A DNA stretch of 40,327 nucleotides from Acidimicrobiales bacterium (GCA_050744105.1 JBOGGP010000001.1:1-40327), one strand, 5' to 3'. Shown: positions 23,647 to 36,502, counted from the first letter of the stretch. Numbers and translations: made by a program. The notes: generated by a model from the sequence alone, not told the origin.

Positions 23647-24804
23647 TCAGCCCGCCCAGTTGGCCTGGGCCCACAGGACGAGGTCCACCAGGGCCTTTCC
23701 GCCGGCCTCGATGTTGTTGTCCTCGTCCCCCCAGCCAAGGAAGCCGCCGGAGATCGACTCCCCGCCGCTGGTGGTGCCGATGGCGTGGGGCCCGTCCTTC
23801 CAGAAGCCGAAAAACGGGCCGCCGGAGTCTCCGGGGGTGGCACTGCCGTGGTGCTCGATCTCCTTGGCGTCGCCGTCGTTGTCGTCGTCGAGGACGGCAA
23901 TGCCCGACTGGTAGGAGGGTCGTTCGGCCCCGGCGATCGAACCGGGGTAGCCGGCGAGGGTCCAGTAGGCGCCACCCTGCCAGCCCGAGTCGTAGACTCT
24001 GGTGCCCATCCACCCCAGCCAGGACCCGATCGGGTCGTACAGGCGCAGGACGGCCATGTCGTGGGCAGCGACGGTGTCGTCGGTGTTCCAGCCGCGGTAG
24101 TCCGAGGTCCACGACTGCGCTCCCTGGCCGTCGGCTGGGGCGCCGTCCCAGTACCCGGGCACGAACTTCATGGCCCAGCTGCGCGATCCCCACGGGCACA
24201 CGTGGCCGGCCGTCACCACGTGGCGGCGGCCCACCAGCACCCCCGAGCCCGACCAGGTCCAACCGCCGCCCTTCCCCCAGTCGGTCCAGGTGAATATCCG
24301 CCCGACACACTGCCAGGGATAGCTTCCCGGCCAGAACACCTGGCGCACGTCGGGCGGGTACACCCCGTAGTAGGGATCGGTCGCCGTGCCCTTGATCCGG
24401 CGCATGGGCGCCCGGGACGCCATCTGGGTCGACGACCGGGCCTGGTAGGACAAGGGAGTCCACTCCGGCCGGAACGGCCCGGTGCTGGCCTGTGCCGGCA
24501 GGTCGTGCTCGGAGCGCTCCAGCCTGTCGCCGGTCCTGCCCGGCTGGCCCAGCTGCACGCCCTCGGGCAGCACCATCTCCCATTCCGTGGCCGGGCCCGT
24601 CGCCGCACCACCGTTGGATGGATGGAGCAGCCTGGACAGGTCTTCGTTATCGGTGTGCGCATGGAATTGCAACCGGGGCCGGGTCAGGCCCTGGTGCACC
24701 TCCATAGGAGCCTTCTGGTTGGCAGGAAGGTCCCACATCCTGGCTAGCTCCTCCGGAAGGAATGGTCTTTCGGCGCGCCTGGCGCGCTCGGCTTGACTCG
24801 ACAT
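23647..24804 (-). CDS. Trypsin-like (chymotrypsin-fold, V8/Glu-endopeptidase-like) serine protease with a ~170-aa N-terminal extension and no recognisable signal peptide
   Basis: 385-aa ORF. Catalytic triad contexts VVTAGHV (His), HDMAVLRL (Asp) and GDSGGPFF (Ser). The N-terminus MSSQAERARRAERPFLPEEL is charged, not signal-like. Confidence 0.8.
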   Translation of the reverse strand: MSSQAERARRAERPFLPEELARMWDLPANQKAPMEVHQGLTRPRLQFHAHTDNEDLSRLLHPSNGGAATGPATEWEMVLPEGVQLGQPGRTGDRLERSEHDLPAQASTGPFRPEWTPLSYQARSSTQMASRAPMRRIKGTATDPYYGVYPPDVRQVFWPGSYPWQCVGRIFTWTDWGKGGGWTWSGSGVLVGRRHVVTAGHVCPWGSRSWAMKFVPGYWDGAPADGQGAQSWTSDYRGWNTDDTVAAHDMAVLRLYDPIGSWLGWMGTRVYDSGWQGGAYWTLAGYPGSIAGAERPSYQSGIAVLDDDNDGDAKEIEHHGSATPGDSGGPFFGFWKDGPHAIGTTSGGESISGGFLGWGDEDNNIEAGGKALVDLVLWAQANWAG

Positions 24805-25193
24805 GATTGCCCCTCTGCCTACCCGTCAATTGTCCGGGATTATCCCGGCCCTCCAATCATACAACGGCGACAAATGGATGTCAAGAGCCGGATGCGGTGC
24901 TGGACCGTGACATGTGTCACCCGGCGATCGACCGGGACACTGCCGGATTCGCTCTGCGGGTGGATTGGCAGCGCGCAAGAGCTGGGAAGGGGGGCTGATC
25001 GGCCGGATCGGCGGTCACGAAGGGCGACCGGTCGCCTCGTCGGCGGCCGGCGGCGAATAGACGTCAGCTGGACCTAGCGCGCTGGGACTTGACGGACTTA
25101 CAGGAGGGACGGATCCCCAACTGCCGGACCTGGAACCGCTTGAGACAACTGGCCGCCGCCCTGCCGCCGTGCTGAGTGTCGGATGGCCTCGCG

Positions 25194-25232
25194 AAGAGGG
25201 ACCAGGCATCGAGTGTCGACCTGGTCCCTCTT
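25194..25232 (-). terminator. 13-bp perfect stem / 13-nt loop hairpin downstream of the CHAP hydrolase gene
   Basis: aagagggaccagg (25194-25206) pairs with cctggtccctctt (25220-25232). No U-tract follows, which is common in high-GC actinomycetes. Confidence 0.45.
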
Positions 25233-25334
25233 GGCACACAGATTGGGCCATAAGACTCGAGTTTAGAGTGCCGTCTCCAGGGGTGGGCTGGTTCGGCGTG
25301 CCCTCGCTCTCACCAGTTCTTGACCCAGCCTAGC

Positions 25335-26138
25335 CTAGCCTAGATAGAGGTAAGGCGGATAGGAGTTGATGTTGAACGTGTGGATGCCAGGAGTCCGACT
25401 GTCGTAGGAGCTGATGATTGTCCCACCTCCTTCGGACAATTCGACGTGTCCGTATCCGGTTGGCGAAGCCACGGACCGCCAAAAGACAAGCGCACCGGCG
25501 GGCGGCGTGCGGTCGCTGTGATGGTTCGGTGCCACCGTCCAGTAGGTGTGGGCAGAGTCATGCGATGGCCCGTACGGCAGGGCATTAGGGTTAGTGATAT
25601 TGACGCCAGCCCAGTAAAGGTACGCCTGGTAGACAAAGCCGAGGCAGTACCCATCCCAGGATGTCTGACCGAGCTTGGACTGTGCCCATGCTATTGCTCT
25701 CTGTGCGTTCGTCGCTGGCGGAGGGGGTGGCGAGCCGCAGGGCGGTACCCCACCGGCGGCCTTGTTGATAGCTGCTCCGTCGTTGACGAAGTGCTCGTTC
25801 ATCCAGCCGGAGCCGTGGCCGGGACCTCCGGCCCACGTGGCGCTAACCCACATAGTGTTGGCACTCCCAGGCACTGTTGTGCCCCCCCGATAGCAGAGTA
25901 CCCTTACGCTGGTCCCGGGATAGAATCCGTTCCCTGTCTGAGCGACCGGGGTGTTCCAGTTCGGGGCCGAGCGCCGGTAGATCCCGCCCTGGTCGTTCAT
26001 GGTGCCAAAGGTAGGAGTTGAGGCTAGTGCAGGTGCGGCTGTAACCGCGGCGGTCGTTGCTAGGGAGATTAGGAAGGCAAGCAATGCGGTCACCGAACCG
26101 ATCTTGCTTGCCGCCTGCTTGGTGGGATGTTGGGGCAT
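25335..26138 (-). CDS. Secreted peptidoglycan hydrolase: signal peptide + SH3b-like domain + Pro linker + CHAP/NlpC-P60-type amidase domain
   Basis: Track ORF 25335..26234 trimmed to ATG 26138, which is preceded by GAGAGGA. Signal-like MPQHPTKQAASKIGSVTALLAFLISLATTAAVTAAPALAS. SH3b-like GGIYRRSAPNWNTPV...VRVLCY. Catalytic Cys context WDGYCLGFVYQAY and His context GYGHVELS. GC and third-position GC are visibly lower than in the neighbours. Confidence 0.8.
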   Translation of the reverse strand: MPQHPTKQAASKIGSVTALLAFLISLATTAAVTAAPALASTPTFGTMNDQGGIYRRSAPNWNTPVAQTGNGFYPGTSVRVLCYRGGTTVPGSANTMWVSATWAGGPGHGSGWMNEHFVNDGAAINKAAGGVPPCGSPPPPPATNAQRAIAWAQSKLGQTSWDGYCLGFVYQAYLYWAGVNITNPNALPYGPSHDSAHTYWTVAPNHHSDRTPPAGALVFWRSVASPTGYGHVELSEGGGTIISSYDSRTPGIHTFNINSYPPYLYLG

Positions 26139-26375
26139 GAGGTGTCCTCTCTTGTCGGATGGTCCAGTCCCGGCGATCGGGGGCCCGGCAAGCCGCACCC
26201 GCCATGTGTGTGCTTGCCGTGAAGCTGGATCCATGCCTTCATTGTGAGGAAGTACAGTTGTGCAAACCAGGGGGCCAATTGCACATCACCAGTCGCCTAG
26301 CTAGTCTAGCTAGTCTCGTCACCCATCGGCGTTCCTGGGTCGCGCATTTCGGGACGGCGACGCACGCTGGCAGTC

Positions 26376-28082
26376 GTGCTGGAAGCCCGTCCTGCGATAA
26401 CGGCCAGCATGCGCCTGGCCACACGGGCGTGGCAGTTGGCCTCACCGCTGGGTGCCGGTGTCAGCCGTCGCCGGCGCGTCCTGGTGGGGGCCTTCGCCGG
26501 AGCGGACGTGGGCCTGTCGTTGGTGCTCCGGCGCTCCAAGCGGCCCTTGGTTGCGCCGCGGGTGGTCGTCGATGCCATCGACGCCCTCGTGTGGAACTGC
26601 CTGGCGGACAACGCCGACCAGGCAGAGGTTTCGATGGTGCCGCTCGGCCCGCTGGCCCTGGAGTGCTCCGTGCGCTATCGCTGGCTCGGCCTTGTCGAGC
26701 CGCTTGCCTGCTCGGCGGTGGCGATCGTCGTCCGGGCCCTGACCGGGCGGCCACTGCGCGCCAGCCAGGCGGCTTGGCCGGTGATAATGGCCATCCCCGG
26801 GCTCAGCATGGGCTTCGCCGACGCAGCCGACGAGGCGGCGGCTCGGGGTCAGGCCCAGGTGATCGCAGCAATGGCGGCCGACGCCGCGGAGCAGGCAGTG
26901 ACCAGGCTGAGCGTGGACACCGACTCCCTCGCCGACCTGGTGCGCGATGCCGCTCACAAGCTGGAGCTGGCCGGGGGCGATCCCACCCGGTGGGCGCTCC
27001 TCGACGACTGGAAGCGTGAGCGCAGCAGCTGGGTGACCGCCACCGGGCTCCAGTACCTGGCCACCGTGCTCCGGTCCTGGGAGGCCCAGCAGTCCCATGC
27101 CGACCTCGGTGCCCACGTCCGCTTCGTCGTCGACCGGGCCGTCGGGTTGACGTTGCTCGACCCGACCCAGGCCGCCACCCTGCTCGACGCCCTGGACGAG
27201 GACGCCCTGGCCGGGCCGACCGAGGTTCGCGTGGACGTGGTCGGTGAGGGACCGAGCGCCACCGTTGTGGTGCGCCTCGGTCCGTGCTCGGTCGTCCTGG
27301 CCGGGCCGGCATCCCTGCCCCGGCCACGGGCGGACTATGCAGTGTCGGCCCTGGCCATCCAGGCGGCGCTCATGGCGATGCCGGCGCTGCCGTCACATGG
27401 TGGCGCCTCGCCACTTGCCTGTCTCGGGCCTGCTCTTGGTGCTGGCACAGCGGCTGTGTGGGCTGCTCGCTCGGTCCCCGTGGACTCGGCCCTGCGGCGC
27501 CGGGCCCTGGTGGGCGCCGCCACCGCCGCACTCGGGGCCCACGTGTGGGGAGTGGCCCGGAGCACCTCACCACCAGGAGCGACACCGCCCAGGACAGCGA
27601 AGCCGCCCACAGGAGCCTGCAGCGCTCTACCCCGACCGGCGTTCCATCCTGCGGTGGCCGGCCACGTCAGCCTGCTGGCCGCGTACCGGTCCAGCATGTC
27701 GGGCCCCGAGCGGCACCTTGCCTGGGCCGGGTTGGCGATGGTCGTGGCCCTGGGCTTCGTGGCCAGCCCGGCGCCTCGCTCGGCCCGGGCCTATCTGGCC
27801 GACTCCGTCTGGTCAGTGGGCGCGTACGCGCTGACCCGCTCGATCGCCGTCGAGTCGGCGCGCCTGGCCTCGACCACCGGGCTGGAGAATGCCGCCATCG
27901 ACGACGCCGTGGGCGCCGCCCTCGACGGGGCCCGGAGCTTCTTCTCCGACCGGGTCCGACTGCTCGACGAGCTCGTGGACCAGGCCGGCGATAGGGTGCC
28001 CGAGGGCATCCTCGCCGAGGTTGCCCAGATGCTTGCCACCGCAGGAGAGCGATGCGCGCAGATACCGGGGTCCAGGTCGTAG
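26376..28082 (+). CDS. Polytopic membrane protein of unknown function (two hydrophobic bundles flanking a ~170-aa soluble domain; soluble C-terminal tail)
   Basis: 568-aa ORF with a GTG start; an alternative ATG lies at 26409. Hydrophobic stretches include VLVGAFAGADVGLSLVL, AAWPVIMAIPGLSMGF, YAVSALAIQAALMAMPAL and HLAWAGLAMVVALGFVA. No H-box or HATPase motifs recognised. Overlaps the next gene by 31 nt. Confidence 0.6.
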   Translation: MLEARPAITASMRLATRAWQLASPLGAGVSRRRRVLVGAFAGADVGLSLVLRRSKRPLVAPRVVVDAIDALVWNCLADNADQAEVSMVPLGPLALECSVRYRWLGLVEPLACSAVAIVVRALTGRPLRASQAAWPVIMAIPGLSMGFADAADEAAARGQAQVIAAMAADAAEQAVTRLSVDTDSLADLVRDAAHKLELAGGDPTRWALLDDWKRERSSWVTATGLQYLATVLRSWEAQQSHADLGAHVRFVVDRAVGLTLLDPTQAATLLDALDEDALAGPTEVRVDVVGEGPSATVVVRLGPCSVVLAGPASLPRPRADYAVSALAIQAALMAMPALPSHGGASPLACLGPALGAGTAAVWAARSVPVDSALRRRALVGAATAALGAHVWGVARSTSPPGATPPRTAKPPTGACSALPRPAFHPAVAGHVSLLAAYRSSMSGPERHLAWAGLAMVVALGFVASPAPRSARAYLADSVWSVGAYALTRSIAVESARLASTTGLENAAIDDAVGAALDGARSFFSDRVRLLDELVDQAGDRVPEGILAEVAQMLATAGERCAQIPGSRS

Positions 28083-28945
28083 TCGTCGACGACGACCCGG
28101 TGGAGCGGGCCGGCCGGGCGGCCCTGCTCGCTGGCGTCGCCGGGGTCCACCTCCACTGCGTGCTCAGCCCCGCACAGGCCCTGGAGCCGAGCCGCGACTG
28201 GGACCGGGTCGACGTGTTGCTGGTCGACCTGTGGGATGCCCGCAGCACCGACTTCGACCACTACCCAGGGGTTGTCGTCGCAGCCGCCGCCCGCACCCGC
28301 CGGCCCCTCGGGCTGCGCGAGGCGCTGGGTGCCGGCCGGCTGGGGGAGCAGCTGACCGTGATCGCCGTGTCGCGCCACCTGCCCAACTCCGCCCTGAACA
28401 AGCGCCTGGTCGAGGCCGGAGTGGACCTGCGTTTCGACCGGGACCACCCTTCCATGCGCGAGCCGGAGCTAACCGTGGAGGTCCTGTGCCACCCCGAGCG
28501 CCACCTCAAGGCCAACGCGGCCGTGTGGGACCGCGACCCCGGCTCGGCCGCCCTGGGCATCGGCCCGCTCACCAGGGTCAACGCGCTGGTGGCTGACGCC
28601 GGCCAGGCCGAGCCTCGGGAGCTGTTCGACGGCGCTCGGGCCTATGGCGACAATGCGGAGCGCATGCGCTGGGACCGTCGCCTCAAGGCCATGGCCGCAC
28701 AGCACGGGCTGGCTCCCCTCGCCGGGCGCCCGAGTGGAGGCCCCCACCTGGGCCGCGGCTTGTCGATCGAGGACTTTCGTTCCGTGATCGATGTCTTCCG
28801 GGGCACCCACCCGGACGGCGCGGACCTGGCCCGCACCTTCCCTCCGCTACCTGGCCGTTGGCGTAGGACTCTGGGCAAGGAGATGGAGCCGCCTATCCCG
28901 AAGGGGATGGAGCCGATGGAGCGCGACATCGACACCGGACGGTAG
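28052..28945 (+). CDS. Receiver (REC)-like domain protein with an unrecognised ~150-aa C-terminal domain
   Basis: 297-aa ORF with an ATG start. REC-like pattern VQVVVVDDDPVERAGRAALL...DVLLVDLWD...LTVIAVS (acidic pocket, phospho-acceptor-like Asp, Ser at the T87 position). No HTH or other output domain recognised. Confidence 0.65.
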   Translation: MRADTGVQVVVVDDDPVERAGRAALLAGVAGVHLHCVLSPAQALEPSRDWDRVDVLLVDLWDARSTDFDHYPGVVVAAAARTRRPLGLREALGAGRLGEQLTVIAVSRHLPNSALNKRLVEAGVDLRFDRDHPSMREPELTVEVLCHPERHLKANAAVWDRDPGSAALGIGPLTRVNALVADAGQAEPRELFDGARAYGDNAERMRWDRRLKAMAAQHGLAPLAGRPSGGPHLGRGLSIEDFRSVIDVFRGTHPDGADLARTFPPLPGRWRRTLGKEMEPPIPKGMEPMERDIDTGR

Positions 28946-29010: not shown

Positions 29011-29085
29011 GAGCGTTGCTTCGTTGACTCTGTTGAGGTCTTGACCAGCGTGGATACTCAAAATTCAGTCAACGAAGCAACGCTC
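29011..29085. repeat. 19-bp perfect inverted repeat (gagcgttgcttcgttgact / agtcaacgaagcaacgctc) with a 37-nt spacer, at the convergent junction; possible bidirectional terminator
   Basis: Arms at 29011-29029 and 29067-29085. An extra 5-bp pairing (ttgag/ctcaa) lies inside the spacer. The right arm overlaps the last codons of the helicase gene. Locally AT-richer. Confidence 0.6.
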
Positions 29086-32000
29086 GCCTTGGTAGTGCCC
29101 GCCGGCGGATCCGGCGTCCTCGTGGCCGGAAGCACGGCCATCCAGCAGACCACGCCGAGGTCGTCCTCGGTGATGGGCTCCAGCAGCGGAGGAGCCTCGA
29201 CCGGCTGGAGCCCGTACGAATCGACCACGGCCACTATGTCCTGGGCCGCCCTGTCCGCTGAGATGGTGGCATCGACCAGGCGGGCACGGACCTCGCTGAG
29301 CGCCTGGCGCACCGAGGAGCTTCGCTCGACGGACAAGGCCTCCTCGGCTGCGGCCGCACCGACCGGCAGCGTGACGGTGGGATCGCGAAGCAGGTCGACG
29401 GCGAAGCGCTGCGCCGGACCGATGCGCTCCTGGGCGTAGCGAGGGTCCCCCCTGCGGTTGTGAGCGGCGACGATGTCGGCCACCGCGGCCTGCCATGCGT
29501 CCTCCAGATTCACCCCGCCGTCGGAGAGGCTTACTCCCGGGGCGCTCCCGGGATTGATACGCCGGAGCATCTCCGACTCGACGTCGGTGACTCTGATGTC
29601 GGTGTCTGGGCCGTCGGCCTCCACGTACCGCCAGTAGCGCTCCCCGCCCCGGGTACGGCACGCGAAGAAGAGGCCAGGCGTGCCAGTCGACGGCACACCC
29701 GGTGCCTGCCTCCCGCTCAGGGGGCCGCTCGGGCCCTGGCGGAAGGCGGCGCCGATCCCCCACGGAAGGCCCCGGAGGCGCTGGGTCTCGCCTTCAGATA
29801 TGGCCCGCAGCACGACCGCCCGCAGGTCCTCGCCCGAGAACGCGCCGCCCTGCCCGGCGTCACCGTCGTCGTCGAGCAGGGTCTCGTCCCCGGCGGCCAG
29901 CCGGGCGGCGTAGGAGCGCAGCTCGACTTCGACGCCCTCGATGACCCCCGACTCCATGCCGTAGACACTGGCGGCGAAGATCTTGCGCAGGATGGTGGCC
30001 TCCAGGCGCAGGATCTCCTCCAGCGCCCCCGGCTCGGGCAGCATGGTCGTAAGCCGGACCGTGTCGTGGTCGCTCTTGAGGCGGATGACCCGGCCGTTGC
30101 GCTGCACCACCCGCTGGGGGTTCCAGGGCATGTCGTAGCTGATGACCGCACCCGCCTGTTGCAGGTTCTGGCCTTCCGAGAGGATGTCGGTGGACAGCAG
30201 CAGGTCGACCTCGCCGTCAGCTGGCACGTAGTCGGGGCGCACCACCGTCTTGGGAGAGAAGCGAGCCAGGGCGGCCGCCCGGCTGTCGGGGTCGCTGGCA
30301 GAGCCGATCACCACCACCCGCTCCCGCCCGGCGAAGCCCGGCGCCAGGTGACGGTCCAGGTAGTCGACGGTGTCACCGAAGCCGGCGAAGACCGCCACCT
30401 TCGCCGAAGGCGAGCCCTCGAGGAGCCGGCGGAGCAACACCAGCTTGGGGTCGGAGTCAGCGTCGAGGCCGGCCAGGCGGTCGCGGATGCGGGAAAGCAC
30501 CTCCCGGTCGGCGGCCACCGCGTCGCGGTAGTCCGGCCGGAACTCACCGCTCGGCCTCGACCCGGCGTCGCCGGCGACCTCCTCGGCCACCCACGAGGCC
30601 AGCCCGGCGTCGTCGACCTCCGCCAAGGCGGCCGCCCGCAGTGCGGCGCGCGACGCCACCACTCCGTGGTCGTCCCACGCGGCTATGAAGGCGTCGTGGG
30701 CGGCCAGCATCCGCGACACCGTGGACAGGCACGCCGCCCAGCAGGACTCGAATCGCTTGAGGACGCCCGACTGCAGCAGGCCTCCGAGGGCGGCCTCGGC
30801 GGCCTCCTCCTCGGCCCCGATCTCCCAGGCGCTGGGCCGGTACCGGGCCATGGTCAGCCCCCCGATCGACGCCGTGATGTCGGGGACCAGCCCGGGGTGG
30901 GCCTGGTCCAGGTCGTAGCGGGCGGTGACGAGCACCGGGGTAGGAAAGCGGACGGGGGTGCCGTCGGGAAAGGTGGCGCCGGGGTAGCGGTCCTCGATGA
31001 ACCGGCGGTCGCGCCGCACGCTCACCGCGTCGGCCAGCGGGAACAGCACGTCGGGGTCGAGGTTGCCCGGGTCACGTTCGCTGGCCCCGGCCCGCACAAA
31101 GAGGTCCCGGGCCGAGTCGATGCCGATGGGTGCGAAGGCCCGGTCGTGGCGGGCGAAGGCCATCACCAGGTGGTACAGGTCCCAGAGGCCGTTGTTGATG
31201 GGGGTGGCGGTGAGCAGGACCAGGTCCTTGCGCTCGCCGCCGAGCAGGCGCTCCAGCGCCCGCCGCCAGGTGGTGTCGGGGTTGCGCAGAGCGTGGGCCT
31301 CGTCGACCACCACCAGGCGGTAGGTGTCGCGCCCGGCGTGCAGGTGGCGGCGGCGGTGGGCGGCGTCGGGTGCCAGCTGCTCGTCGCCGGCCAGCTGCTG
31401 GTAGCTGACGACCTGGGCGGGCAGCCGGGCGGCGTCGATGCGCTCGGTCCAGTTGGCCACCAGCTGGGCGGGGGCGACCACCAGGGCGTGGTGGCCGCGG
31501 TGCAGGGCGTACTCCTCGATGAAGGCCAGCCCGATCTCGGTCTTGCCCGTCCCGACCCCGTCGGCGTATATGACCCCGTGGTGCTGGGCCACGATCCGCA
31601 GGGCTTGCTCGTAGCCGTCGCGCTGGAAGCCGGCCAGGGCAACCGCAGAGATCGTCGACGGGGGCAGCGGGGCCTCGAGGTCGTCGCCGTAGAGCTCCAG
31701 CAGTGCCCGCAGGTAGACCGTCTCGGGCTCGACCAGACCGGGGTCGGGGAACAGCAGGGCCTGCAGCGCCTCCTTGTAGTCGGCGGCGTCGGCCCACAGC
31801 CGCTCGAACCACTTCAGGGCGGCGCCGGCGACCGGCGGGTCGTAGTGGGCCAGGCCCAGCTCCAGGTTGGCAAACAGGCCGGCGCCGGTCAGGTTGGCCG
31901 AGGTGACCAGGGCGGCCCGGGCGTCCGCGGTGGTGCCGAACAGGTACGCCTTTCCGTGGAGAAACCGGGTGACGTAACGGCGCACCTCGACCGAAGGCTC

Positions 32001-32339
32001 GGCGAGCCACGCAGCCAGATGGGAAAGGTGGGCCGCGGCGCGACTGGGCGGGAACCGGGCCAGGTCACGATCCGCGGCCAGCGACCGTAGCGCCCGTTCG
32101 AAGCGCGAGATCGGGAAGTCGGCACCGAGCCCGGGGTCGGGAGCGGCCCCGAGCAGGAGCCGGGTGGGCCGGCCGGCCTGTACCAGCGTGGCCAGGTGGT
32201 GGAGGCCGGCCAGGTTGACGTACCCGGTGGCCACGGCGAGGGGGTGGGAGGTGCCGATGTCGCCGAGCAGGTAGCCGAGGGCGCCGGCGTGGGTCGTCTC
32301 GTCCCCCAGGTTGTCGAGCAGGTAGGGCCGCCCGGGCAT
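29058..32339 (-). CDS. PLD-family (single HKD) nuclease domain fused to an SNF2/SF2 helicase, with a long C-terminal extension (about 1093 aa)
   Basis: Track ORF 29058..32606 trimmed to ATG 32339 (MPGRPYLLDNLGD...). HKD motif HGKAYLF...LVTSANLT. Helicase motifs DGVGTGKT (I), VVDEAHALRN (II), LLTATPINN (III), STDILSEGQNLQ (V) and QRNGRVIRL (VI). The start lies 2 nt after the methyltransferase stop. Confidence 0.9.
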   Translation of the reverse strand: MPGRPYLLDNLGDETTHAGALGYLLGDIGTSHPLAVATGYVNLAGLHHLATLVQAGRPTRLLLGAAPDPGLGADFPISRFERALRSLAADRDLARFPPSRAAAHLSHLAAWLAEPSVEVRRYVTRFLHGKAYLFGTTADARAALVTSANLTGAGLFANLELGLAHYDPPVAGAALKWFERLWADAADYKEALQALLFPDPGLVEPETVYLRALLELYGDDLEAPLPPSTISAVALAGFQRDGYEQALRIVAQHHGVIYADGVGTGKTEIGLAFIEEYALHRGHHALVVAPAQLVANWTERIDAARLPAQVVSYQQLAGDEQLAPDAAHRRRHLHAGRDTYRLVVVDEAHALRNPDTTWRRALERLLGGERKDLVLLTATPINNGLWDLYHLVMAFARHDRAFAPIGIDSARDLFVRAGASERDPGNLDPDVLFPLADAVSVRRDRRFIEDRYPGATFPDGTPVRFPTPVLVTARYDLDQAHPGLVPDITASIGGLTMARYRPSAWEIGAEEEAAEAALGGLLQSGVLKRFESCWAACLSTVSRMLAAHDAFIAAWDDHGVVASRAALRAAALAEVDDAGLASWVAEEVAGDAGSRPSGEFRPDYRDAVAADREVLSRIRDRLAGLDADSDPKLVLLRRLLEGSPSAKVAVFAGFGDTVDYLDRHLAPGFAGRERVVVIGSASDPDSRAAALARFSPKTVVRPDYVPADGEVDLLLSTDILSEGQNLQQAGAVISYDMPWNPQRVVQRNGRVIRLKSDHDTVRLTTMLPEPGALEEILRLEATILRKIFAASVYGMESGVIEGVEVELRSYAARLAAGDETLLDDDGDAGQGGAFSGEDLRAVVLRAISEGETQRLRGLPWGIGAAFRQGPSGPLSGRQAPGVPSTGTPGLFFACRTRGGERYWRYVEADGPDTDIRVTDVESEMLRRINPGSAPGVSLSDGGVNLEDAWQAAVADIVAAHNRRGDPRYAQERIGPAQRFAVDLLRDPTVTLPVGAAAAEEALSVERSSSVRQALSEVRARLVDATISADRAAQDIVAVVDSYGLQPVEAPPLLEPITEDDLGVVCWMAVLPATRTPDPPAGTTKASVASLTEF

Positions 32340-32341
32340 GC

Positions 32342-35300
32342 CTACGGCTTGTCGGACAGCACGGAGAGCTCGGCCAGCCGGCGGCGGAGGGCCTGGCGGT
32401 AGGCGGCGGGCACGGCGCCGGCGGTGAAGTCCCCGAGGACCAGGTCCAGCTCGCCGGCGCTCAGGCTCCACGAGCGGGCCACCCGGGCGTCGATCTCGAC
32501 TCGCAGCCGCCGGCGCTCCTCCTCGGGAAGGGGTCCGGGCTCGATGCCGAAGGACCCGGCGAAGTCGGCGTAGCGGTCGTCCACGCACGACAGGCGGGCG
32601 GAGCACTCGGCCACCGCCTCGAAGTCCTCGTCGCCGAGATCGGGGACCACCAGGCCTTCGAGGATGAAGAAGTTGAGGTTGATCTCCACGAAGCGGCGGG
32701 CCTGCCAGTCGAAGGGGAGGCTGTCCATGATCGCCAGGCAGGCGGCCCGCTCGCGATCGTCGCCCGCGGCGAAGGCCAGGTAGGGCGCCTTGTTGGTGAG
32801 AAAGACCCCCGGCGGGACGAGGCAGGCCCGGACAGTGCGCGAGTCGTTGCTCCGGCTCACGTCCCGGAAGGCCACCCGGGCCGGGTCGATCTGGTCGGCC
32901 ACGGCCCGGCGGCGGACCGCCACCGGGATCTCTGCGGCCAGGATCGAGCCACTACCTGGGCGCAACTTGGTGACCTTCTGGCGGACCGCCTCGGTGTCGG
33001 GGCAGGGGCGGGCGCCGGCTCCGTGGGGGTCGTAGCCGTCGAAGCTCTCGCCCTTCCACAGGGGCCGGCCGCTGCTGGCGCCCTGCCACAGGCGGCGATC
33101 GTTGGTCTCGTCAAGTTCCCGAACGGGTAAGCAGCGCCAGCGGCCCGCCGGCCCATGGGGGAAGGCGTGGCCCACCCGCACCTTGGCCAGCAGGTCGGCC
33201 TCGGCCTGGGTGCCGATGAGCGGCGTCGCCCATCCGGGGCCGAACGCTTCCCGGCGCAGGGCGATCCCCGGCGACGCCACCTGGGCTTCCCAGGCGGGGA
33301 GCGAGTCGGCGGGCCCGGCCACGCGCACCTCATGATCAGCACTGGGAGCCCTTCGTTCTGCGGCCACCAGGGCGACGCCATATTGGGGGTGGGTGTCGAA
33401 CATCCACAGGCGCCGGTTGATGAGGAAGTCCGTGCGACGGCACGTGGTCTCCTCGAATCGCCAGCGCCGGAAGCCCTCGGACCCGTCGGTGACGAACGTG
33501 CTCCTCGGCAGCACCACCCCGAGCGCGCCCCCGTCGCGCAGCACCGCCCGGTAGCGCTGGCAGAACAGCTTGTAGAGGTCCGGGTCGCTGGGCATCGCCT
33601 GGTACTCACCGGCTCCGACGTACCGGCGCACTGTGGCCGCCTCGGCCTGGGCCTCCGCTAGGAGGACAGGAAGCTCCGGTCGCTCGGCCACGAGCTGGTC
33701 GATAGCAGCGGCCCGAGCTGCTTCGGGCAGGCCTCGCAAGTCCGGTCGGTACAGCCCGTAGAACGCCAAAGCCTCGACCGTCACCTCCTCCCACGGGGGA
33801 TTCCCGACGACCGCGTCGAAGCCGGGCTGGGACCGGGAGAAGACGCGGGGGAAAGCGAGCGGCCAGTGCAAGAAGCGATGCCGCTCCCCTTTCTCCTCCG
33901 CGGCATCTACGAGTCGGTTGGTGCGCCCCTCGATGATCGCCGCGCCGTGCAGCTCGGCCTCCTGGCGGCCCCCGGCGACGCCGAACGGCTCGGCCGTCCA
34001 CAGGTCGAAGAGGCGCTGCAGGCCGGCGACGGCGTGGTGGGCCTCGGCGTCGGCCGCCTCGCTGGCGGAGACCTCCTCGGGGGTGCGGTCCTCGCCTTCG
34101 GCCACCCGCAAGGCGGCCTCTCCGGCGGCGGCCAGGGCGGCGGACACCGCCTCGTCGAGCATGCCGGGCTGGTCGGGGTGGGTGACGCGTAGAGCCTCGG
34201 GCCGGGCCACGCCGACGAGAGAGTTGCCGACCACGACGTTGCGGCCCAGGTAGGCCAGTGACAGGCCGGGGACGAACGACGCCAGCCACAGCGACAGCTT
34301 GGCCACTTCGGCTCCTATTGGGGCTCACGTCCACGCCGAACACGCAGCGCTTGAGCACCAGCCGGCGCAGGAGGGCCACGTCCTCGATCACCGCGCCGGG
34401 GCTGGCACCGGCCCGCAGGCGGTCCAGGGCGCCGCGGACGGCGGGAAGCGGGCTCTGGCCGAGGAAGCGGACCACGGCGTCGGCCAGCTCGTTGACGACT
34501 ACGACCAGGAAGTGGGCGCTCCCGCAGGCGGGGTCGAGCACGGCGAAGTCGAACAGCTCGGCGGCGGCGGCGGCCGGGTCCTCGCTTATCCGGCTGCGCA
34601 CCCGTGCGAGGTGGGCCTCGAAGGCCGGCACCACCGTCTGGCGCACCAGGTGACGGACCAGCTCGCTGCGGGTGTAGTACACGCCGCCGCTCTTGCGGCC
34701 CCCCTCGTGGGTCTGCCACAGCAGGTCACCGGCCTCGATCTCCGGTGCCTCACCCGACCGGGCCGGCCGGTAGCGATCGGCGCGAGCGTCGTAGACCAGC
34801 GGCGCGTCCGCCACCGACAGGTGCAACGACAGCAGGTCCTCGTAGATGTGGCCCAGCTGGCCGATCTCCAGGGTCGAGTAGTCGACGCCCTCGCCAGTCT
34901 CGGGGTCGCGGCCGATCGCCGCCAGGACGGCGGCGAAGTCGGGGTCGGCGATCTGGGCCCGTTCGAGGGTGGCGGCGCCGTCAAAGCCGTCGGCCGCGAA
35001 GAGCGCCCCGTTGTAGGCGGGGACCCCCCATGCCGGGTTCCCGGTGCGCATGGCCTTGACCAGCAGCATGAAGCGATCCCACAAGGAGGTCGAGCGCGAG
35101 CCGACCCGGTCGGCGCTCTCGGCTGCCTCCTCGGCCAGGGCGGCGAGGGAGGCCTGGCGGTAGGCACGGTTGTCTGTCGGCAGGTAGCCAGCACTCTCGG
35201 CGTAGGCGACGAACAACACCCGGAACACCAGCGTCATGGCCGCCCGCTCCAACTCGTCTCGGGTGCCCTCGACGGTGGCGTCGTGGCCCTGGGCGCCCGC

Positions 35301-36329
35301 CCAGCGGCCGAGGGCGCGTGCGATGGTAGGCATCACCGACTGCCGGAGGGTCTTGTCCACCCGCTGGCGCAGGGCGGCCCCGAAGCTCTGGGCCTCGGCG
35401 ACGAGGACCTCGAACCCGCCGGCCCCCAGGTAGTCCGGGCCGAGCAGGGCCAGGAACGGAAGGTCGTCGGGTTGGAGGGCGGCGGCATCCATGTCCACGT
35501 AGCGCGATGCCGCCGATCCGAGCCGGGGGTCGGCTTGGAACAGCCTCAGCCGCCCGGCGCAGGCCAGCAGGCCGAAGGGGGCACCGTCGGCGGCGCAGTC
35601 GTTGAGCAGCAGCCCCTCGGGGGGACGTCCGTCGTCGTCGAGACGTGACAGGGCGGCGGGCTCCCGGACGGGGTGGACGACGGCGACAGGGCGCCCGTCG
35701 TAGCGGGCCAGGAAGCCCCGGTGGCGCCGGCGCTCCAGCTGGTAGCCGAGTTCGGTCAAGACCGCACGCCAATCCGAATGGCGGCCGATGCCCTTGGCGG
35801 TGTCCCGGGCTGCGGCCCAGCGGGCCGGGTCGCGGCGGAGCCGGACGTCGAGGGTGTGCAGCGTCAGCAGGCCGGCCAGCTTGAGGCCGGGCACGCCGGC
35901 CTGGTCGAGGCGGTCCAGCTCGGCGGCCAGCTCCCGCACGGCGTCCAGCCGGGGGCGGCCGTCCAGCCGGGCCAGCACCTCGAAGAGGGAACCCGCCTCG
36001 ACCGACCGCAGGGGCCCGGACCCGTCGGCCACGCCGAGGACGGCCAGGCAGCCGGGGCGGGCCGGGTCGTCGGACACCAGCAGCAAAGGGACGGCGCCGC
36101 CGCCGCGACGGTCCCGCCACAGCTTGCGCAGCGTTCGCTCGCTGGCCGGCGCGGCGACGGCAACCTCGATCCCGGCGACCAGGACGGCGGCGGACAGCGG
36201 CGGGTTGACCGGGACGCGCCGCGCCGAGGGCCCGGCGAGCAGCGCGGCGACGACCTCCTCGGCCTTCACCGGCAGCACGGATACGACACGTGGCCACGAT
36301 AACTGTGGCCGCCTCACGACCAGGGCCAT
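32342..36329 (-). pseudogene. Very large gamma-class N6-adenine DNA methyltransferase (Eco57I/PglX/type IIG-like architecture), interrupted by a single frameshift near 34306-34316
   Basis: Two overlapping track ORFs (33606..36440 and 32342..34306). The upstream frame carries motif I (VLDPACGSAHFLVVV) and ends sensibly at CVFGVDVSP. The downstream frame continues (I)GAEVAKLSLWLASF... to HWPLAFPRVF...FDAVVGNPPWEEV (motif IV) and a ~500-aa C-terminal region. The span length is 3n+1. Proposed start ATG 36329, 6 nt after GGGGGAG. Confidence 0.85.
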
Positions 36330-36502
36330 GACGGCTCCCCCAGGTTGCAGTACGGGCGGGACGCGAGGGGAGTCGGTTGTCCAGCATCGCGCCGGGGTGT
36401 GACATCGCGACTGCTCGAGCGAGGAACCAGGCCCAGGCATGTGACGGGGAGAGCTCCGTCTGCCGGTCGCCTACCGACCTCCCCGGGTCCGCAACGCCTT
36501 TC

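What the first reader, a model, noticed from the sequence alone, without database searches (positions are those of the whole stretch)
29058..36329. Tightly coupled giant N6-adenine methyltransferase + PLD-nuclease/SNF2-helicase fusion: candidate two-gene defence system (DISARM-like parts list without the DISARM core)
Seen in sequence: gene 1 (36329 to 32342, about 1328 codons once one frameshift is repaired) has three parts. These are a ~550-aa N-terminal region I cannot assign, gamma-class adenine MTase motifs (DPACGSAHFL; HWPLAFPRVF...FDAVVGNPPW), and a ~500-aa C-terminal region of the size of a target-recognition module. Its TAG (32344-32342) is followed after 2 nt by the ATG of gene 2 (about 1093 aa). 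Gene 2 has a single HKD phospholipase-D nuclease motif fused N-terminally to a complete SNF2/SF2 helicase motif set, plus a ~330-aa tail. Both flanks are unrelated genes in convergent or divergent orientation, so the module appears complete with two genes. Established knowledge: class 1 DISARM combines DrmMI (adenine MTase), DrmD (SNF2) and DrmC (PLD) with the core DrmA/DrmB (DUF1998). BREX needs PglZ and BrxC. Type I, type III and type ISP systems have different subunit or domain orders. None of those cores is present here. Inference: a stand-alone modification-plus-translocating-nuclease system in which the DrmC-like and DrmD-like functions are fused.
Basis: partly seen in the sequence, partly recalled or inferred. 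Interest (0 to 1): 0.78.

Follow-up and report, generated by a model that had tools for sequence, protein, structure and literature searches.

The report
Two-gene methylase plus helicase-nuclease defence module
A giant DNA adenine methylase gene, broken here by a one-base insertion, is tightly coupled to an intact nuclease-helicase fusion gene; the pair recurs as a stand-alone module in bacteria and archaea and is most likely an unnamed ATP-dependent restriction-modification-like defence system.

Summary
Gene 1 (36329→32342, minus strand) is a 1328-aa Eco57I/DrmMI-like N6-adenine methyltransferase once one extra base at about 34318 is removed. Its TAG is followed after 2 nt by gene 2, a 1093-aa fusion of a single-HKD PLD nuclease, an SNF2 ATPase and a conserved tail.

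The pair is a real two-gene module. All 78 related genomic loci with upstream DNA carry the methylase 5' of the helicase, usually with stop and start codons within 12 nt. No third gene is conserved: no DrmA/B, PglZ/BrxC or DUF499/DUF3780.

Three observations point to defence:
- The pair sits in defence islands and mobile elements.
- Other defence genes are inserted between the two genes in about a quarter of loci.
- A 29-34%-identical sister clade lies on plasmids of cultured actinobacteria and haloarchaea.

Methylase genes are often frameshifted, and some carry simple-sequence repeats at one fixed position. Helicase genes almost never are. This suggests that restriction needs the methylase subunit, as in Type I and Type III systems.

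A REBASE-derived Type IIG profile in PADLOC matches the methylase, and annotation calls the partner "helicase-related protein". I found no paper describing the pair. Verdict: a new variant of a known kind. Function is untested, and the window's copy is probably inactive.

The parts
32342..36329 (-). Gene 1: giant gamma-class N6-adenine DNA methyltransferase. It is 1328 aa after removal of one base; as it stands it is a frameshifted pseudogene.
   Evidence: Pfam Eco57I. PADLOC REase_MTase_IIG PDLC03620 E = 1e-114 over residues 273-1304, and DrmMI E = 2e-61 over the MTase core. Intact homologues are 1293-1331 aa.
34712..36329 (-). Gene 1 residues 1-540: a family-specific N-terminal region. It holds two alpha/beta modules with restriction-endonuclease-like topology (about 23-122 and 187-300) and a helical domain (about 305-500).
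   Evidence: AlphaFold model, pLDDT 86. Foldseek gives only weak hits: BpuSI 3S1S E = 0.01, Hjc resolvases at TM about 0.35-0.47, and DrdV. There is no invariant Lys in residues 1-300. Residues 1-300 find only 228 cluster representatives among 1.84 billion, and the full-length ones are MTases of about 1250-1354 aa matched at their N terminus.
33721..34711 (-). Gene 1 residues 541-870: methyltransferase catalytic domain. Motif I DPACGSAHFL lies at 34506-34535 and motif IV NPPW at 33791-33802.
   Evidence: Both motifs are conserved in at least 90% of the 55 aligned sequences.
34316..34320 (-). Frameshift site. There is one extra A in CCCC-AA-TAGG, plus ATA where the family has ATG. The site separates motif I from motif IV.
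   Evidence: The same lesion is present in the second assembly L006. There is no simple-sequence repeat here.
32345..33720 (-). Gene 1 residues 871-1328: C-terminal region, a putative target-recognition and/or partner-docking module. In several homologues, simple-sequence repeats are inserted just upstream of (or, in L083, at the end of) the motif that corresponds to 33086-33142 (RWRCLPVRELDETNDRRLW).
   Evidence: TIGR02987 Alw26I/Eco31I-family MTase hit over residues 1070-1213. PADLOC MTase_II hit over 1144-1217. SSR mapping. A Nostoc relative is annotated as carrying a TaqI-like C-terminal specificity domain.
32337..32344 (-). Stop-start junction TAG-gc-ATG, indicating translational coupling.
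   Evidence: In 61 of 87 related loci the stop-start gap lies between -10 and +12 nt, with a mode of -1.
29058..32339 (-). Gene 2: intact PLD(HKD)-SNF2 helicase-nuclease fusion of 1093 aa.
   Evidence: PADLOC 'HKD+Snf2' PDLC01075 E = 7e-38 and DrmD E = 2e-23. More than 1891 homologues; the top 120 are at least 62% identical over about 98% of the query in all but two (85%).
31742..32339 (-). Gene 2 residues 1-200: single-HKD phospholipase-D-type nuclease domain. HGKAYLF lies at 31938-31958 and SANLT at 31887-31901.
   Evidence: Pfam PLDc_2 over residues 106-182. H128, K130, S147 and N149 are invariant in 23 homologues.
29972..31741 (-). Gene 2 residues 201-790: SNF2/SF2 ATPase core. Walker A lies at 31539-31559, DEAH at 31281-31304 and motif VI at 30078-30104.
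   Evidence: The best solved relatives by profile are RapA, Sulfolobus Snf2/Rad54 and Ino80.
29061..29971 (-). Gene 2 residues 791-1093: conserved C-terminal tail, made of a small beta module and a helical bundle. Its fold is unassigned.
   Evidence: AlphaFold model of residues 770-1093, pLDDT 85.6. No PDB fold match (best E = 0.02, TM < 0.15). The tail is conserved across the family and aligns in the 34%-identical sister clade up to residue ~1075.

Best explanation
The locus is a two-gene, ATP-dependent restriction-modification-like defence module.

Shown:
- Gene 1 encodes a giant gamma-class N6-adenine methyltransferase with a Type IIG/DrmMI-like layout: an N-terminal endonuclease-like fold without the canonical catalytic signature, then a helical domain, the MTase domain and a large C-terminal region.
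- Gene 2 encodes a single-HKD PLD nuclease fused to an SNF2 ATPase and a conserved tail.
- The two genes are translationally coupled.
- Across at least six phyla they co-occur as the only conserved genes at the locus.
- They lie in defence islands.

Inferred mechanism:
- The methylase recognises a short DNA sequence through its C-terminal region and methylates host sites. The site is probably asymmetric and probably hemimethylated, as in the MmeI family, BREX and MANTIS.
- The PLD-SNF2 protein dimerises through its PLD domains to form one active site, as BfiI, SauUSI and MtsD do.
- It is recruited or licensed by methylase bound at unmethylated sites.
- It uses ATP-driven dsDNA translocation to reach and cut foreign DNA.
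- Restriction therefore depends on the methylase subunit, following Type I/III logic.

In this window the methylase carries a disabling +1 insertion between motifs I and IV. This copy is probably switched off or decaying, while the nuclease-helicase gene is still intact.
For: - Architecture and motifs.
- Co-occurrence: the methylase is upstream of the helicase in 78/78 loci with upstream DNA. All 7 methylase-ascertained metagenome loci with room for a full-length downstream gene carry the helicase.
- Coupling: the stop-start gap is at most 12 nt in 61 of 87 loci.
- No third conserved gene family. The recurrent flanking clusters that could be annotated are metabolic or regulatory genes, shared by at most 9 loci.
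- Defence context: McrBC, HNH and NERD; nSTAND; TIR, AbiE, Nmad2 and SLOG; an integrase/relaxase element; a phosphorothioated-DNA-binding restriction endonuclease and DUF262.
- Defence genes are inserted between the two genes in about 19 loci. They include AriA/DUF4276 (PARIS-like), HEC-01A/B, NsnB, AbiLi, Old and GmrSD_N.
- The methylase is tolerated in the OFF state while the nuclease-helicase stays intact. The methylase occupies more than one reading frame in 13/78 loci plus the window, against 1/80 for the helicase (Fisher p = 2.6e-4).
- There are 11 simple-sequence repeat tracts inside methylase genes and none inside helicase genes. Five sit at the same position, about residues 1053-1081, and use different repeat units: (AG)18, (CCCA)16, (CCAG)30, G10 and G12.
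- Mechanistic precedent: in MANTIS/Gao_RL the MTase directs the specificity of a dimeric PLD-SF2 effector (bioRxiv 10.64898/2026.09.23.753747).
Against: - No phage, plasmid or methylome experiment exists for any family member.
- The frameshift asymmetry is partly an ascertainment effect. The 80 genome loci were found and ranked by helicase similarity, and the methylase-ascertained control is small (7 loci).
- Some frameshifts or repeat tracts may be assembly artefacts. One example is the 52-base G run in L063, a low-coverage contig.
- The C-terminal region shows no hypervariable segment of the kind typical of target-recognition domains among homologues of at least 52% identity.
- No physical interaction between the two proteins has been shown or modelled.
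- The module is absent from IMG/VR viral contigs, which is neutral.
Confidence: 0.6

Rival explanations
1. Gene 1 is a self-contained Type IIG restriction-modification enzyme that cuts with its own N-terminal PD-(D/E)xK nuclease. The PLD-SNF2 protein is an accessory or a separate neighbouring system.
For: - PADLOC REase_MTase_IIG PDLC03620 matches at E = 1e-114. Sister-clade methylases match it over their full length at E = 1e-242 to 1e-258.
- The N-terminal model has endonuclease-like alpha-beta-beta-beta-alpha-beta topology. Its weak Foldseek hits are BpuSI, DrdV and Hjc.
Against: - No canonical D...(D/E)xK signature and no invariant Lys in residues 1-300 across 55 homologues.
- The Foldseek hits are all at E >= 0.01.
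- The helicase gene is translationally coupled and present in 78/78 loci. An optional accessory would not be expected to show this.
- The PADLOC profile derives from REBASE predictions, not from a characterised enzyme, as far as these tools show.
Confidence: 0.12
2. The PLD-SNF2 protein is an autonomous effector with its own target recognition through its tail, in the manner of SauUSI. The methylase only protects host DNA, as in classical toxin/antidote R-M logic.
For: - The layout of PLD, SF2 ATPase and C-terminal tail resembles SauUSI, as discussed for MtsD in bioRxiv 10.64898/2026.09.23.753747.
- The tail is highly conserved.
Against: - Methylase-disrupted or phase-OFF alleles coexist with an intact helicase-nuclease gene in the window and in about 13 other genomes. 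Under this model that state should be self-toxic.
- The tail has no recognisable DNA-reader fold.
Confidence: 0.1
3. The module is not primarily antiviral. It could be a phase-variable epigenetic regulator (a phasevarion), or a maintenance or competition module of a mobile element.
For: - Simple-sequence repeats in the methylase gene are typical of contingency loci.
- The module occurs on plasmids and on an integrative element.
Against: - A regulator gives no reason to retain a conserved, catalytically intact nuclease-translocase.
- Embedded and neighbouring genes are overwhelmingly defence genes.
- Phase-variable methylases are also a normal feature of genuine Type I and Type III R-M systems (established knowledge).
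Confidence: 0.08
4. The pair is a decayed remnant of a larger DISARM class 1 or MANTIS/BREX-related system that lost its core genes, and it is non-functional.
For: - The next-best PADLOC hits, after REase_MTase_IIG (gene 1) and 'HKD+Snf2' (gene 2), are DrmMI and DrmD.
- Distant methylase relatives lie next to SNF2 helicases in the reverse gene order.
- The window's copy is itself frameshifted.
Against: - The same two-gene layout recurs in 78/78 loci from several phyla, and in a 29-34%-identical sister clade in bacteria and archaea.
- Conservation over the full length is high, with mean column identity of 61-73%.
- No core genes remain anywhere in the related loci.
Confidence: 0.04

Closest known systems
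MANTIS (Gao_RL / Gao_29; Type-2 DUF499-centred BREX-related system): MtsA-D
   Same: - It is a methylation-based defence whose effector is an N-terminal HKD/PLD nuclease fused to an SF2/Swi2-Snf2 ATPase.
- The effector is dimeric with one PLD active site.
- The N6-adenine MTase directs specificity.
(PMC12839542; bioRxiv 10.64898/2026.09.23.753747.)

Gene 2's best PADLOC hit is an 'HKD+Snf2' model (E = 7e-38). Its best NCBIfam hit is the anti-phage PLD-helicase model NF042964.
   Different: - MANTIS needs a DUF499 AAA+ ATPase (MtsA) and a DUF3780 protein (MtsB). Neither is present here or in any related locus.
- The NF042964 score is 110 bits against a cut-off of 1100, and only part of the helicase region (residues 516-777) aligns.
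- The methylase here is a 1328-aa Eco57I/DrmMI-like protein with its own large N- and C-terminal regions. The BR-system methylase is described as COG1743 (PMC7641849).
Class 1 DISARM (DrmD, DrmMI, DrmA, DrmB, DrmC)
   Same: - The parts list matches: a DrmMI-like adenine MTase, collinear with the 1347-position DrmMI profile over the core (E = 2e-61), an SNF2 ATPase like DrmD, and a PLD nuclease like DrmC.
   Different: - No DrmA or DrmB/DUF1998 core.
- PLD and SNF2 are fused in one protein.
- The NCBIfam DrmD and DrmC equivalogs score far below their cut-offs (99 against 610; 33 against 133).
Type III restriction-modification (Mod + Res)
   Same: - Two subunits. One is a methylase that carries DNA recognition. 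The other is an SF2 ATPase-nuclease that is inert without it.
- mod genes are commonly phase-variable through simple-sequence repeats (established knowledge).
- Gene 2 matches Pfam ResIII.
   Different: - The methylase here is gamma-class and Eco57I-like with terminal extensions, not a beta-class Mod.
- The nuclease is an N-terminal PLD, not a C-terminal PD-(D/E)xK.
- The motor is SNF2-type.
Type IIG/IIL enzymes (MmeI, BpuSI, DrdV) as catalogued by REBASE/PADLOC
   Same: - The overall order is an N-terminal endonuclease-fold domain, a helical spacer, a gamma-MTase and a C-terminal recognition region.
- PADLOC PDLC03620 matches. BpuSI is the top fold hit.
   Different: - No conserved catalytic PD-(D/E)xK residues.
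- An obligatory partner helicase-nuclease gene.
- About 400 aa longer than the characterised Type IIG enzymes (my own knowledge of their sizes).
SauUSI (Type IV) and the N protein of CglI/NgoAVII
   Same: - A PLD nuclease fused to an SF2 ATPase in a restriction role. SauUSI is dimeric with a C-terminal extension (cited in bioRxiv 10.64898/2026.09.23.753747; the CglI/NgoAVII comparison is from my own knowledge).
   Different: - SauUSI is a single protein that targets modified DNA.
- CglI/NgoAVII use a C5-MTase and a separate R protein.
- Neither appeared in the sequence-profile searches against PDB chains.

Membership tests
DISARM class 1 | DrmA helicase and DrmB (DUF1998) core genes in the locus | tested here: not met
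   Pfam and PADLOC scans of all window neighbours find none. No such gene family recurs in the related loci analysed (window, L001, L003, L008, L010-L089). None appears in the contexts with precomputed Pfam.
DISARM class 1 | DrmD, DrmC and DrmMI equivalog-level matches | tested here: not met
   NCBIfam NF038317 DrmD scores 99.4 bits against a cut-off of 610. NF038319 DrmC scores 33.4 against 133. The PADLOC DrmMI profile matches the MTase core only.
BREX | PglZ phosphatase, BrxC ATPase and a PglX methylase | tested here: not met
   No PglZ or BrxC in the window or in related loci. NF033452 PglX scores 18.9 bits against a cut-off of 500.
MANTIS / Gao_RL / Type-2 BREX-related | DUF499 AAA+ ATPase (MtsA) and DUF3780 protein (MtsB) encoded with the MTase and the PLD-helicase | tested here: not met
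   Both are absent from the window and from the conserved neighbourhood. The definition is taken from PMC12839542 and bioRxiv 10.64898/2026.09.23.753747.
MANTIS / Gao_RL / Type-2 BREX-related | N-terminal HKD nuclease fused to a Swi2/Snf2-type ATPase as effector | tested here: met
   Pfam PLDc_2 with SNF2-rel_dom and Helicase_C. PADLOC 'HKD+Snf2' at E = 7e-38. However, NF042964 scores 110 bits against a cut-off of 1100, so the match is to the architecture, not to the family.
Type IIG restriction-modification | Endonuclease and methyltransferase active sites in one polypeptide | tested here: inconclusive
   The MTase motifs are present. An N-terminal endonuclease-like fold is predicted. No conserved D...(D/E)xK signature or invariant Lys is found. 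The profile match to PADLOC PDLC03620 is strong.
Type III restriction-modification | Beta-class Mod with an internal recognition domain, plus Res with a C-terminal PD-(D/E)xK nuclease | tested here: not met
   The motif order is gamma-class (motif I before NPPW) and the domain is Eco57I-type. The nuclease is an N-terminal PLD.
Type ISP restriction-modification | Nuclease, helicase, MTase and recognition domain in a single polypeptide | tested here: not met
   There are two separate genes in the window and in all related loci.
Any methylation-based defence | Demonstrated DNA methylation and protection from phage or plasmid | not testable with these tools
   This needs methylome sequencing and infection or transformation assays.

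The most novel reading that the evidence does not exclude
The pair defines a widespread, so far unnamed class of ATP-dependent restriction-modification system found in Bacteria and Archaea. It would work like Type III (a recognition and methylation subunit that licenses a motor-nuclease), but it is built from a giant Type IIG/DrmMI-like methylase with a degenerate endonuclease domain and a dimeric PLD-SNF2 translocase. Databases currently file it as 'Type IIG' plus 'helicase-related protein'. In marine-sponge and other symbiont lineages, a repeat cassette at one fixed position in the methylase gene, reached with different repeat units in different lineages, would switch the whole system on and off between a long and a short isoform.
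Probability: 0.45. Interest if true: 0.75.

Novelty: new variant of a known kind. Interest (0 to 1): 0.6.

Why it matters
- If the pair works as proposed, it is the minimal form of the methylase plus PLD-helicase defence logic seen in DISARM and MANTIS. It would show that this logic needs neither DrmA/B nor the DUF499/DUF3780 loaders.
- It would correct a systematic mis-typing. The giant 'Type IIG' entries actually come with an obligatory motor-nuclease partner.
- It offers a simple two-protein system for studying how a methylase licenses a PLD-SNF2 translocating nuclease. That step could not be reconstituted in vitro for MANTIS.
- The phase-variable methylase alleles give a natural genetic argument about which subunit controls restriction.
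- Cultured carriers make the idea directly testable: Mycobacterium sp. pUA109, M. gallinarum JCM 6399, R. erythropolis R138, Euzebya pacifica and Halorubrum lacusprofundi.

Tried and rejected
- DISARM, BREX and MANTIS membership. No core genes are present and the equivalog scores lie far below their cut-offs.
- A third conserved component. All-against-all clustering of flanking ORFs from the window, L001, L003, L008 and L010-L089 found nothing beyond the pair. Of ten recurrent flank clusters scanned, seven are metabolic or regulatory genes (MTTB, ETF, GcvT, IclR, RACo, GFA), three have no Pfam match, and none is shared by more than 9 loci.
- The three unannotated ORFs next to gene 2 in the window (25335-28945) as system parts. 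They have no Pfam, PADLOC or informative PHROG hits and are not shared with any related locus.
- Programmed ribosomal frameshifting at the window's lesion. There is no slippery or repeat context, 65 of the 78 homologues read through in a single frame, none breaks at this position, and the site also carries a substitution.
- Fold assignment of the gene 2 tail. The model is confident but has no PDB match.
- Sequence and profile searches of gene 1 against PDB chains. Only spurious designed-protein hits and a short BsaXI stretch were found.
- Viral carriage. No relative was found in IMG/VR.
- Promoter and terminator scans. Nothing exceeded the shuffled controls.
- tRNA or integration-site landmarks. 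There are none in the window.
- A hypervariable target-recognition segment in the methylase. None is seen among close homologues.

Full report
**1. What is in the window**

On the minus strand, two overlapping ORFs (33606-36440 and 32342-34306) are two halves of one gene. They are joined by deleting one A in AGCCCC-AA-TAGG at 34318/34319. From the ATG at 36329 the repaired product is 1328 aa. It reads ...GVDVSPIGAEVAKLSLWL, and 55 homologues read ...GVDVSPMGAEVAKLSLWL. The lesion is therefore a one-base insertion plus a substitution.

A second assembly carries the same lesion. L006 (GCA_975101115.1) differs from the window at four positions over 19.5 kb. There is no repeat or slippery context at the site. 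I read it as a real inactivating mutation that separates motif I (DPACGSAHFL, residues 599-608) from motif IV (NPPW, residues 843-846).

The TAG at 32344-32342 is followed by 'gc' and then the ATG of gene 2. Gene 2 is an intact 1093-aa ORF ending at 29058.

**2. Domain content**

- Pfam finds only Eco57I in gene 1. In gene 2 it finds PLDc_2 (106-182), SNF2-rel_dom, ResIII and Helicase_C.
- In PADLOC, gene 1 best matches a REBASE-derived 'Type IIG' profile, PDLC03620 (E = 1e-114, residues 273-1304). DrmMI profiles match over the MTase core (E = 2e-61). Gene 2 best matches an 'HKD+Snf2' model (E = 7e-38) and then DrmD.
- No NCBIfam model comes near its cut-off. The scores are DrmD 99 against 610, DrmC 33 against 133, PglX 19 against 500 and the anti-phage PLD-helicase model 110 against 1100.
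- In 23 homologues of gene 2, the PLD residues H128, K130, S147 and N149, the Walker A GTGKT and the D-E-x-H motif are invariant.

**3.

*N-terminal 590 aa of gene 1.* The region models confidently (pLDDT 86). It forms two alpha/beta modules and a helical domain, and module 2 has the alpha-beta-beta-beta-alpha-beta order of the restriction-endonuclease fold.
- Foldseek gives only weak hits: the Type IIG enzyme BpuSI (E = 0.01), archaeal Hjc resolvases (TM 0.35-0.47) and DrdV.
- There is no invariant lysine or D...(D/E)xK pattern in residues 1-300.
- An exhaustive HMMER search with residues 1-300 finds only 228 cluster representatives among 1.84 billion. The full-length hits are MTases of about 1250-1354 aa matched at their N terminus.
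- The module is therefore family-specific and looks like a degenerate nuclease fold.

*C-terminal tail of gene 2 (791-1093).* The modelled segment (residues 770-1093) is also confident (pLDDT 85.6) but has no PDB fold match.

*C-terminal region of gene 1.* It has weak similarity to the C-terminal parts of Type IIS methylases.

**4. Is it a two-gene module?**

- Gene 2 has more than 1891 homologues. The top 120 are at least 62% identical, all but two of them over about 98% of the query.
- A scan of one genome per species found relatives in 218 stretches, and 80 loci were fetched. They come from Actinomycetota, Gemmatimonadota, Acidobacteriota, Dormibacterota, Chloroflexota and one gammaproteobacterial MAG.
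- In all 78 loci with DNA upstream of the helicase, a full-length gene 1 homologue lies 5' of it.
- In 61 of 87 loci the stop-start distance lies between -10 and +12 nt.
- Clustering all flanking ORFs shows no other family shared by more than 9 loci. Of ten such clusters scanned, seven are metabolic or regulatory genes of related genomes and three have no Pfam match.
- Methylase-ascertained metagenome contigs give the same pairing, in all 7 loci with room for a full-length downstream gene.
- A sister clade has the same layout: about 29% identity for the methylase over its full length (one pair compared) and about 34% for the helicase including the tail. It lies on plasmids of Mycobacterium gallinarum, Rhodococcus erythropolis, Euzebya pacifica and the archaea Halorubrum lacusprofundi and Halalkalicoccus. 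There the genes are annotated 'hypothetical protein' plus 'helicase-related protein'.
- The sister-clade methylases match PDLC03620 at E = 1e-242 to 1e-258 over their full length. This shows that the 'Type IIG' profile was built from this superfamily.

**5. Evidence for a defence role**

- Neighbours include McrBC, HNH and NERD, nSTAND, TIR, AbiE and SLOG genes, an integrase/relaxase element, and a phosphorothioated-DNA-binding restriction endonuclease with DUF262.
- In about 19 loci the two genes are separated by 0.6-9.3 kb. These inserts encode other defence proteins, including AriA/DUF4276 (PARIS-like), HEC-01A/B, NsnB, AbiLi, Old and GmrSD_N.
- The same embedding behaviour has been reported for the Hma operon (PMC11232893).
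- None of this is a functional test.

**6. A genetic clue to mechanism**

- The methylase gene occupies more than one reading frame in 13 of 78 loci. The helicase gene does so in 1 of 80. Counting the window, this is 14 of 79 against 1 of 81, Fisher p = 2.6e-4.
- Ascertainment by helicase similarity inflates this contrast. However, methylase-ascertained loci point the same way: 0 of 7 helicases are broken, and one methylase carries two frameshifts.
- Eleven simple-sequence repeat tracts lie inside methylase genes and none inside helicase genes.
- Five tracts sit at the same position, about residues 1053-1081, and use different units: (AG)18, (CCCA)16, (CCAG)30, G10 and G12.
- In the four loci from Longimicrobiales/Gemmatimonadota and sponge-associated Acidimicrobiia where it is visible (L031, L039, L041, L084), the tract is followed by two copies of a conserved motif in different frames. 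One frame stops just after copy A, which gives a short isoform. Another frame reads on to the C terminus, which gives the long isoform. L039 is in the long, ON frame and L041 in the short frame.
- These are hallmarks of phase variation. A methylase that can be switched off next to an intact nuclease-translocase argues that restriction needs the full-length methylase. This is the logic of Type I and Type III systems, and the methylase also directs effector specificity in MANTIS (bioRxiv 10.64898/2026.09.23.753747).

**7. Most likely mechanism**

*Shown:* the domain content, the catalytic motifs, the coupling, the co-occurrence and the genomic context.

*Inferred:*
- The methylase recognises and methylates a short sequence.
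- The PLD-SNF2 protein dimerises to form one PLD active site.
- It is recruited by methylase at unmethylated sites and uses ATP-driven translocation to cleave foreign DNA.
- The helicase tail and the methylase N-terminal module are candidate docking surfaces.

The window's copy, with its methylase interrupted, is probably inactive.

**8. Comparison with known systems**

- It works like Type III R-M and like MANTIS/Gao_RL, and it shares parts with class 1 DISARM.
- It fails the defining features of each: no DrmA/B, no PglZ/BrxC, no DUF499/DUF3780, not a beta-class Mod with a PD-(D/E)xK Res, and not a single polypeptide.
- Type IIG membership is inconclusive. The profile match and the fold fit, but no catalytic nuclease signature is present and a partner gene is obligatory.
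- The DUF499-centred systems with HKD-Snf2 effectors have been described (PMC12839542, PMC7641849, PMC11232893). My five full-text searches found no description of this two-gene form.

**9. Verdict**

- The pair is a new variant of a known kind: a minimal methylase plus PLD-SNF2 restriction-like module. It is widespread, currently mis-typed or unannotated, and has unexpected phase-variable relatives.
- It is experimentally untested and is pseudogenised in this particular window.
- Interest: 0.6.

Noticed in passing
L041 9025-9146; L039 9084-9147; L031 4839-4874; L083 4844-4853; L084 5774-5785. These correspond to the site just upstream of (L083: at the end of) the motif at window 33086-33142.: Homologous methylase genes carry perfect simple-sequence repeats at one fixed position: (CCAG)30, (CCCA)16, (AG)18, G10 and G12. 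In L031, L039, L041 and L084 the tract is followed by a duplicated motif in two reading frames. One frame gives a short isoform that stops early and the other gives the full-length isoform. This looks like a phase-variation cassette. The window itself has no such repeat.
   Followed up: yes
L076 9795-9822; L071 2558-2580; L069 4689-4708; L063 4511-4683: Further repeat tracts lie at other positions in methylase homologues: (TC)14, G23, C20, and G52/G10/C13. The 52-base G run in L063 is on a contig with about 5x coverage and may be an assembly artefact.
   Followed up: partly
Between the methylase and helicase genes in L010, L013, L015, L023, L025, L034, L036, L044, L052-L055, L065, L069, L071, L072, L081, L084, L089, L095: The short junction between the two genes is an insertion hotspot for other defence genes. 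These include PARIS-like AriA with DUF4276, HEC-01A/B, NsnB, AbiLi, Old, GmrSD_N, DUF5131, SLOG and Schlafen/AlbA_2. In L069 and L081 the methylase is on the opposite strand.
   Followed up: partly
window 23647-28945: A segment of lower GC content (0.63-0.68, against about 0.73 elsewhere) lies between the housekeeping genes (rsmB, fmt, def) and gene 2. It holds a trypsin-like peptidase ORF and three ORFs with no Pfam or PADLOC hits. The 557-aa ORF looks like a membrane protein. None of these ORFs is shared with any related locus. The segment may be the rest of an acquired island.
   Followed up: partly
L110 6567-13921: A pair in the reverse gene order: an SNF2 helicase (1006 aa, no PLD detected) directly followed by a 1445-aa Eco57I-type methylase. 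It is flanked by housekeeping genes (gltX, SpoU, DeoC) and has no DISARM core. It may be another minimal helicase-methylase module.
   Followed up: no
L150 3619-10979 (Nostoc sp. C052 plasmid pC052_A): Upstream of a related PLD-SNF2 gene, three consecutive ORFs (747, 183 and 420 aa, about 1350 aa in all) take the place of the giant methylase. The first is annotated as carrying a 'TaqI-like C-terminal specificity domain'. An IS630 transposase lies just upstream. DUF262 and EVE-domain genes lie downstream.
   Followed up: no
L146-L149 (plasmids of E. pacifica, H. lacusprofundi, M. gallinarum and R. erythropolis): Sister-clade pairs in cultured bacteria and archaea are annotated only as 'hypothetical protein' plus 'helicase-related protein'. 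Their methylases are the best full-length matches to PADLOC's Type IIG profile PDLC03620. That profile therefore represents this two-gene family rather than characterised single-chain Type IIG enzymes.
   Followed up: partly
window 32340-32606: The mechanical ORF for gene 2 extends upstream to a GTG at 32606 (1182 aa) and overlaps the 3' end of gene 1. Homologues start at the conserved MPGRPYLLDNL, so the ATG at 32339 is the real start.
   Followed up: yes
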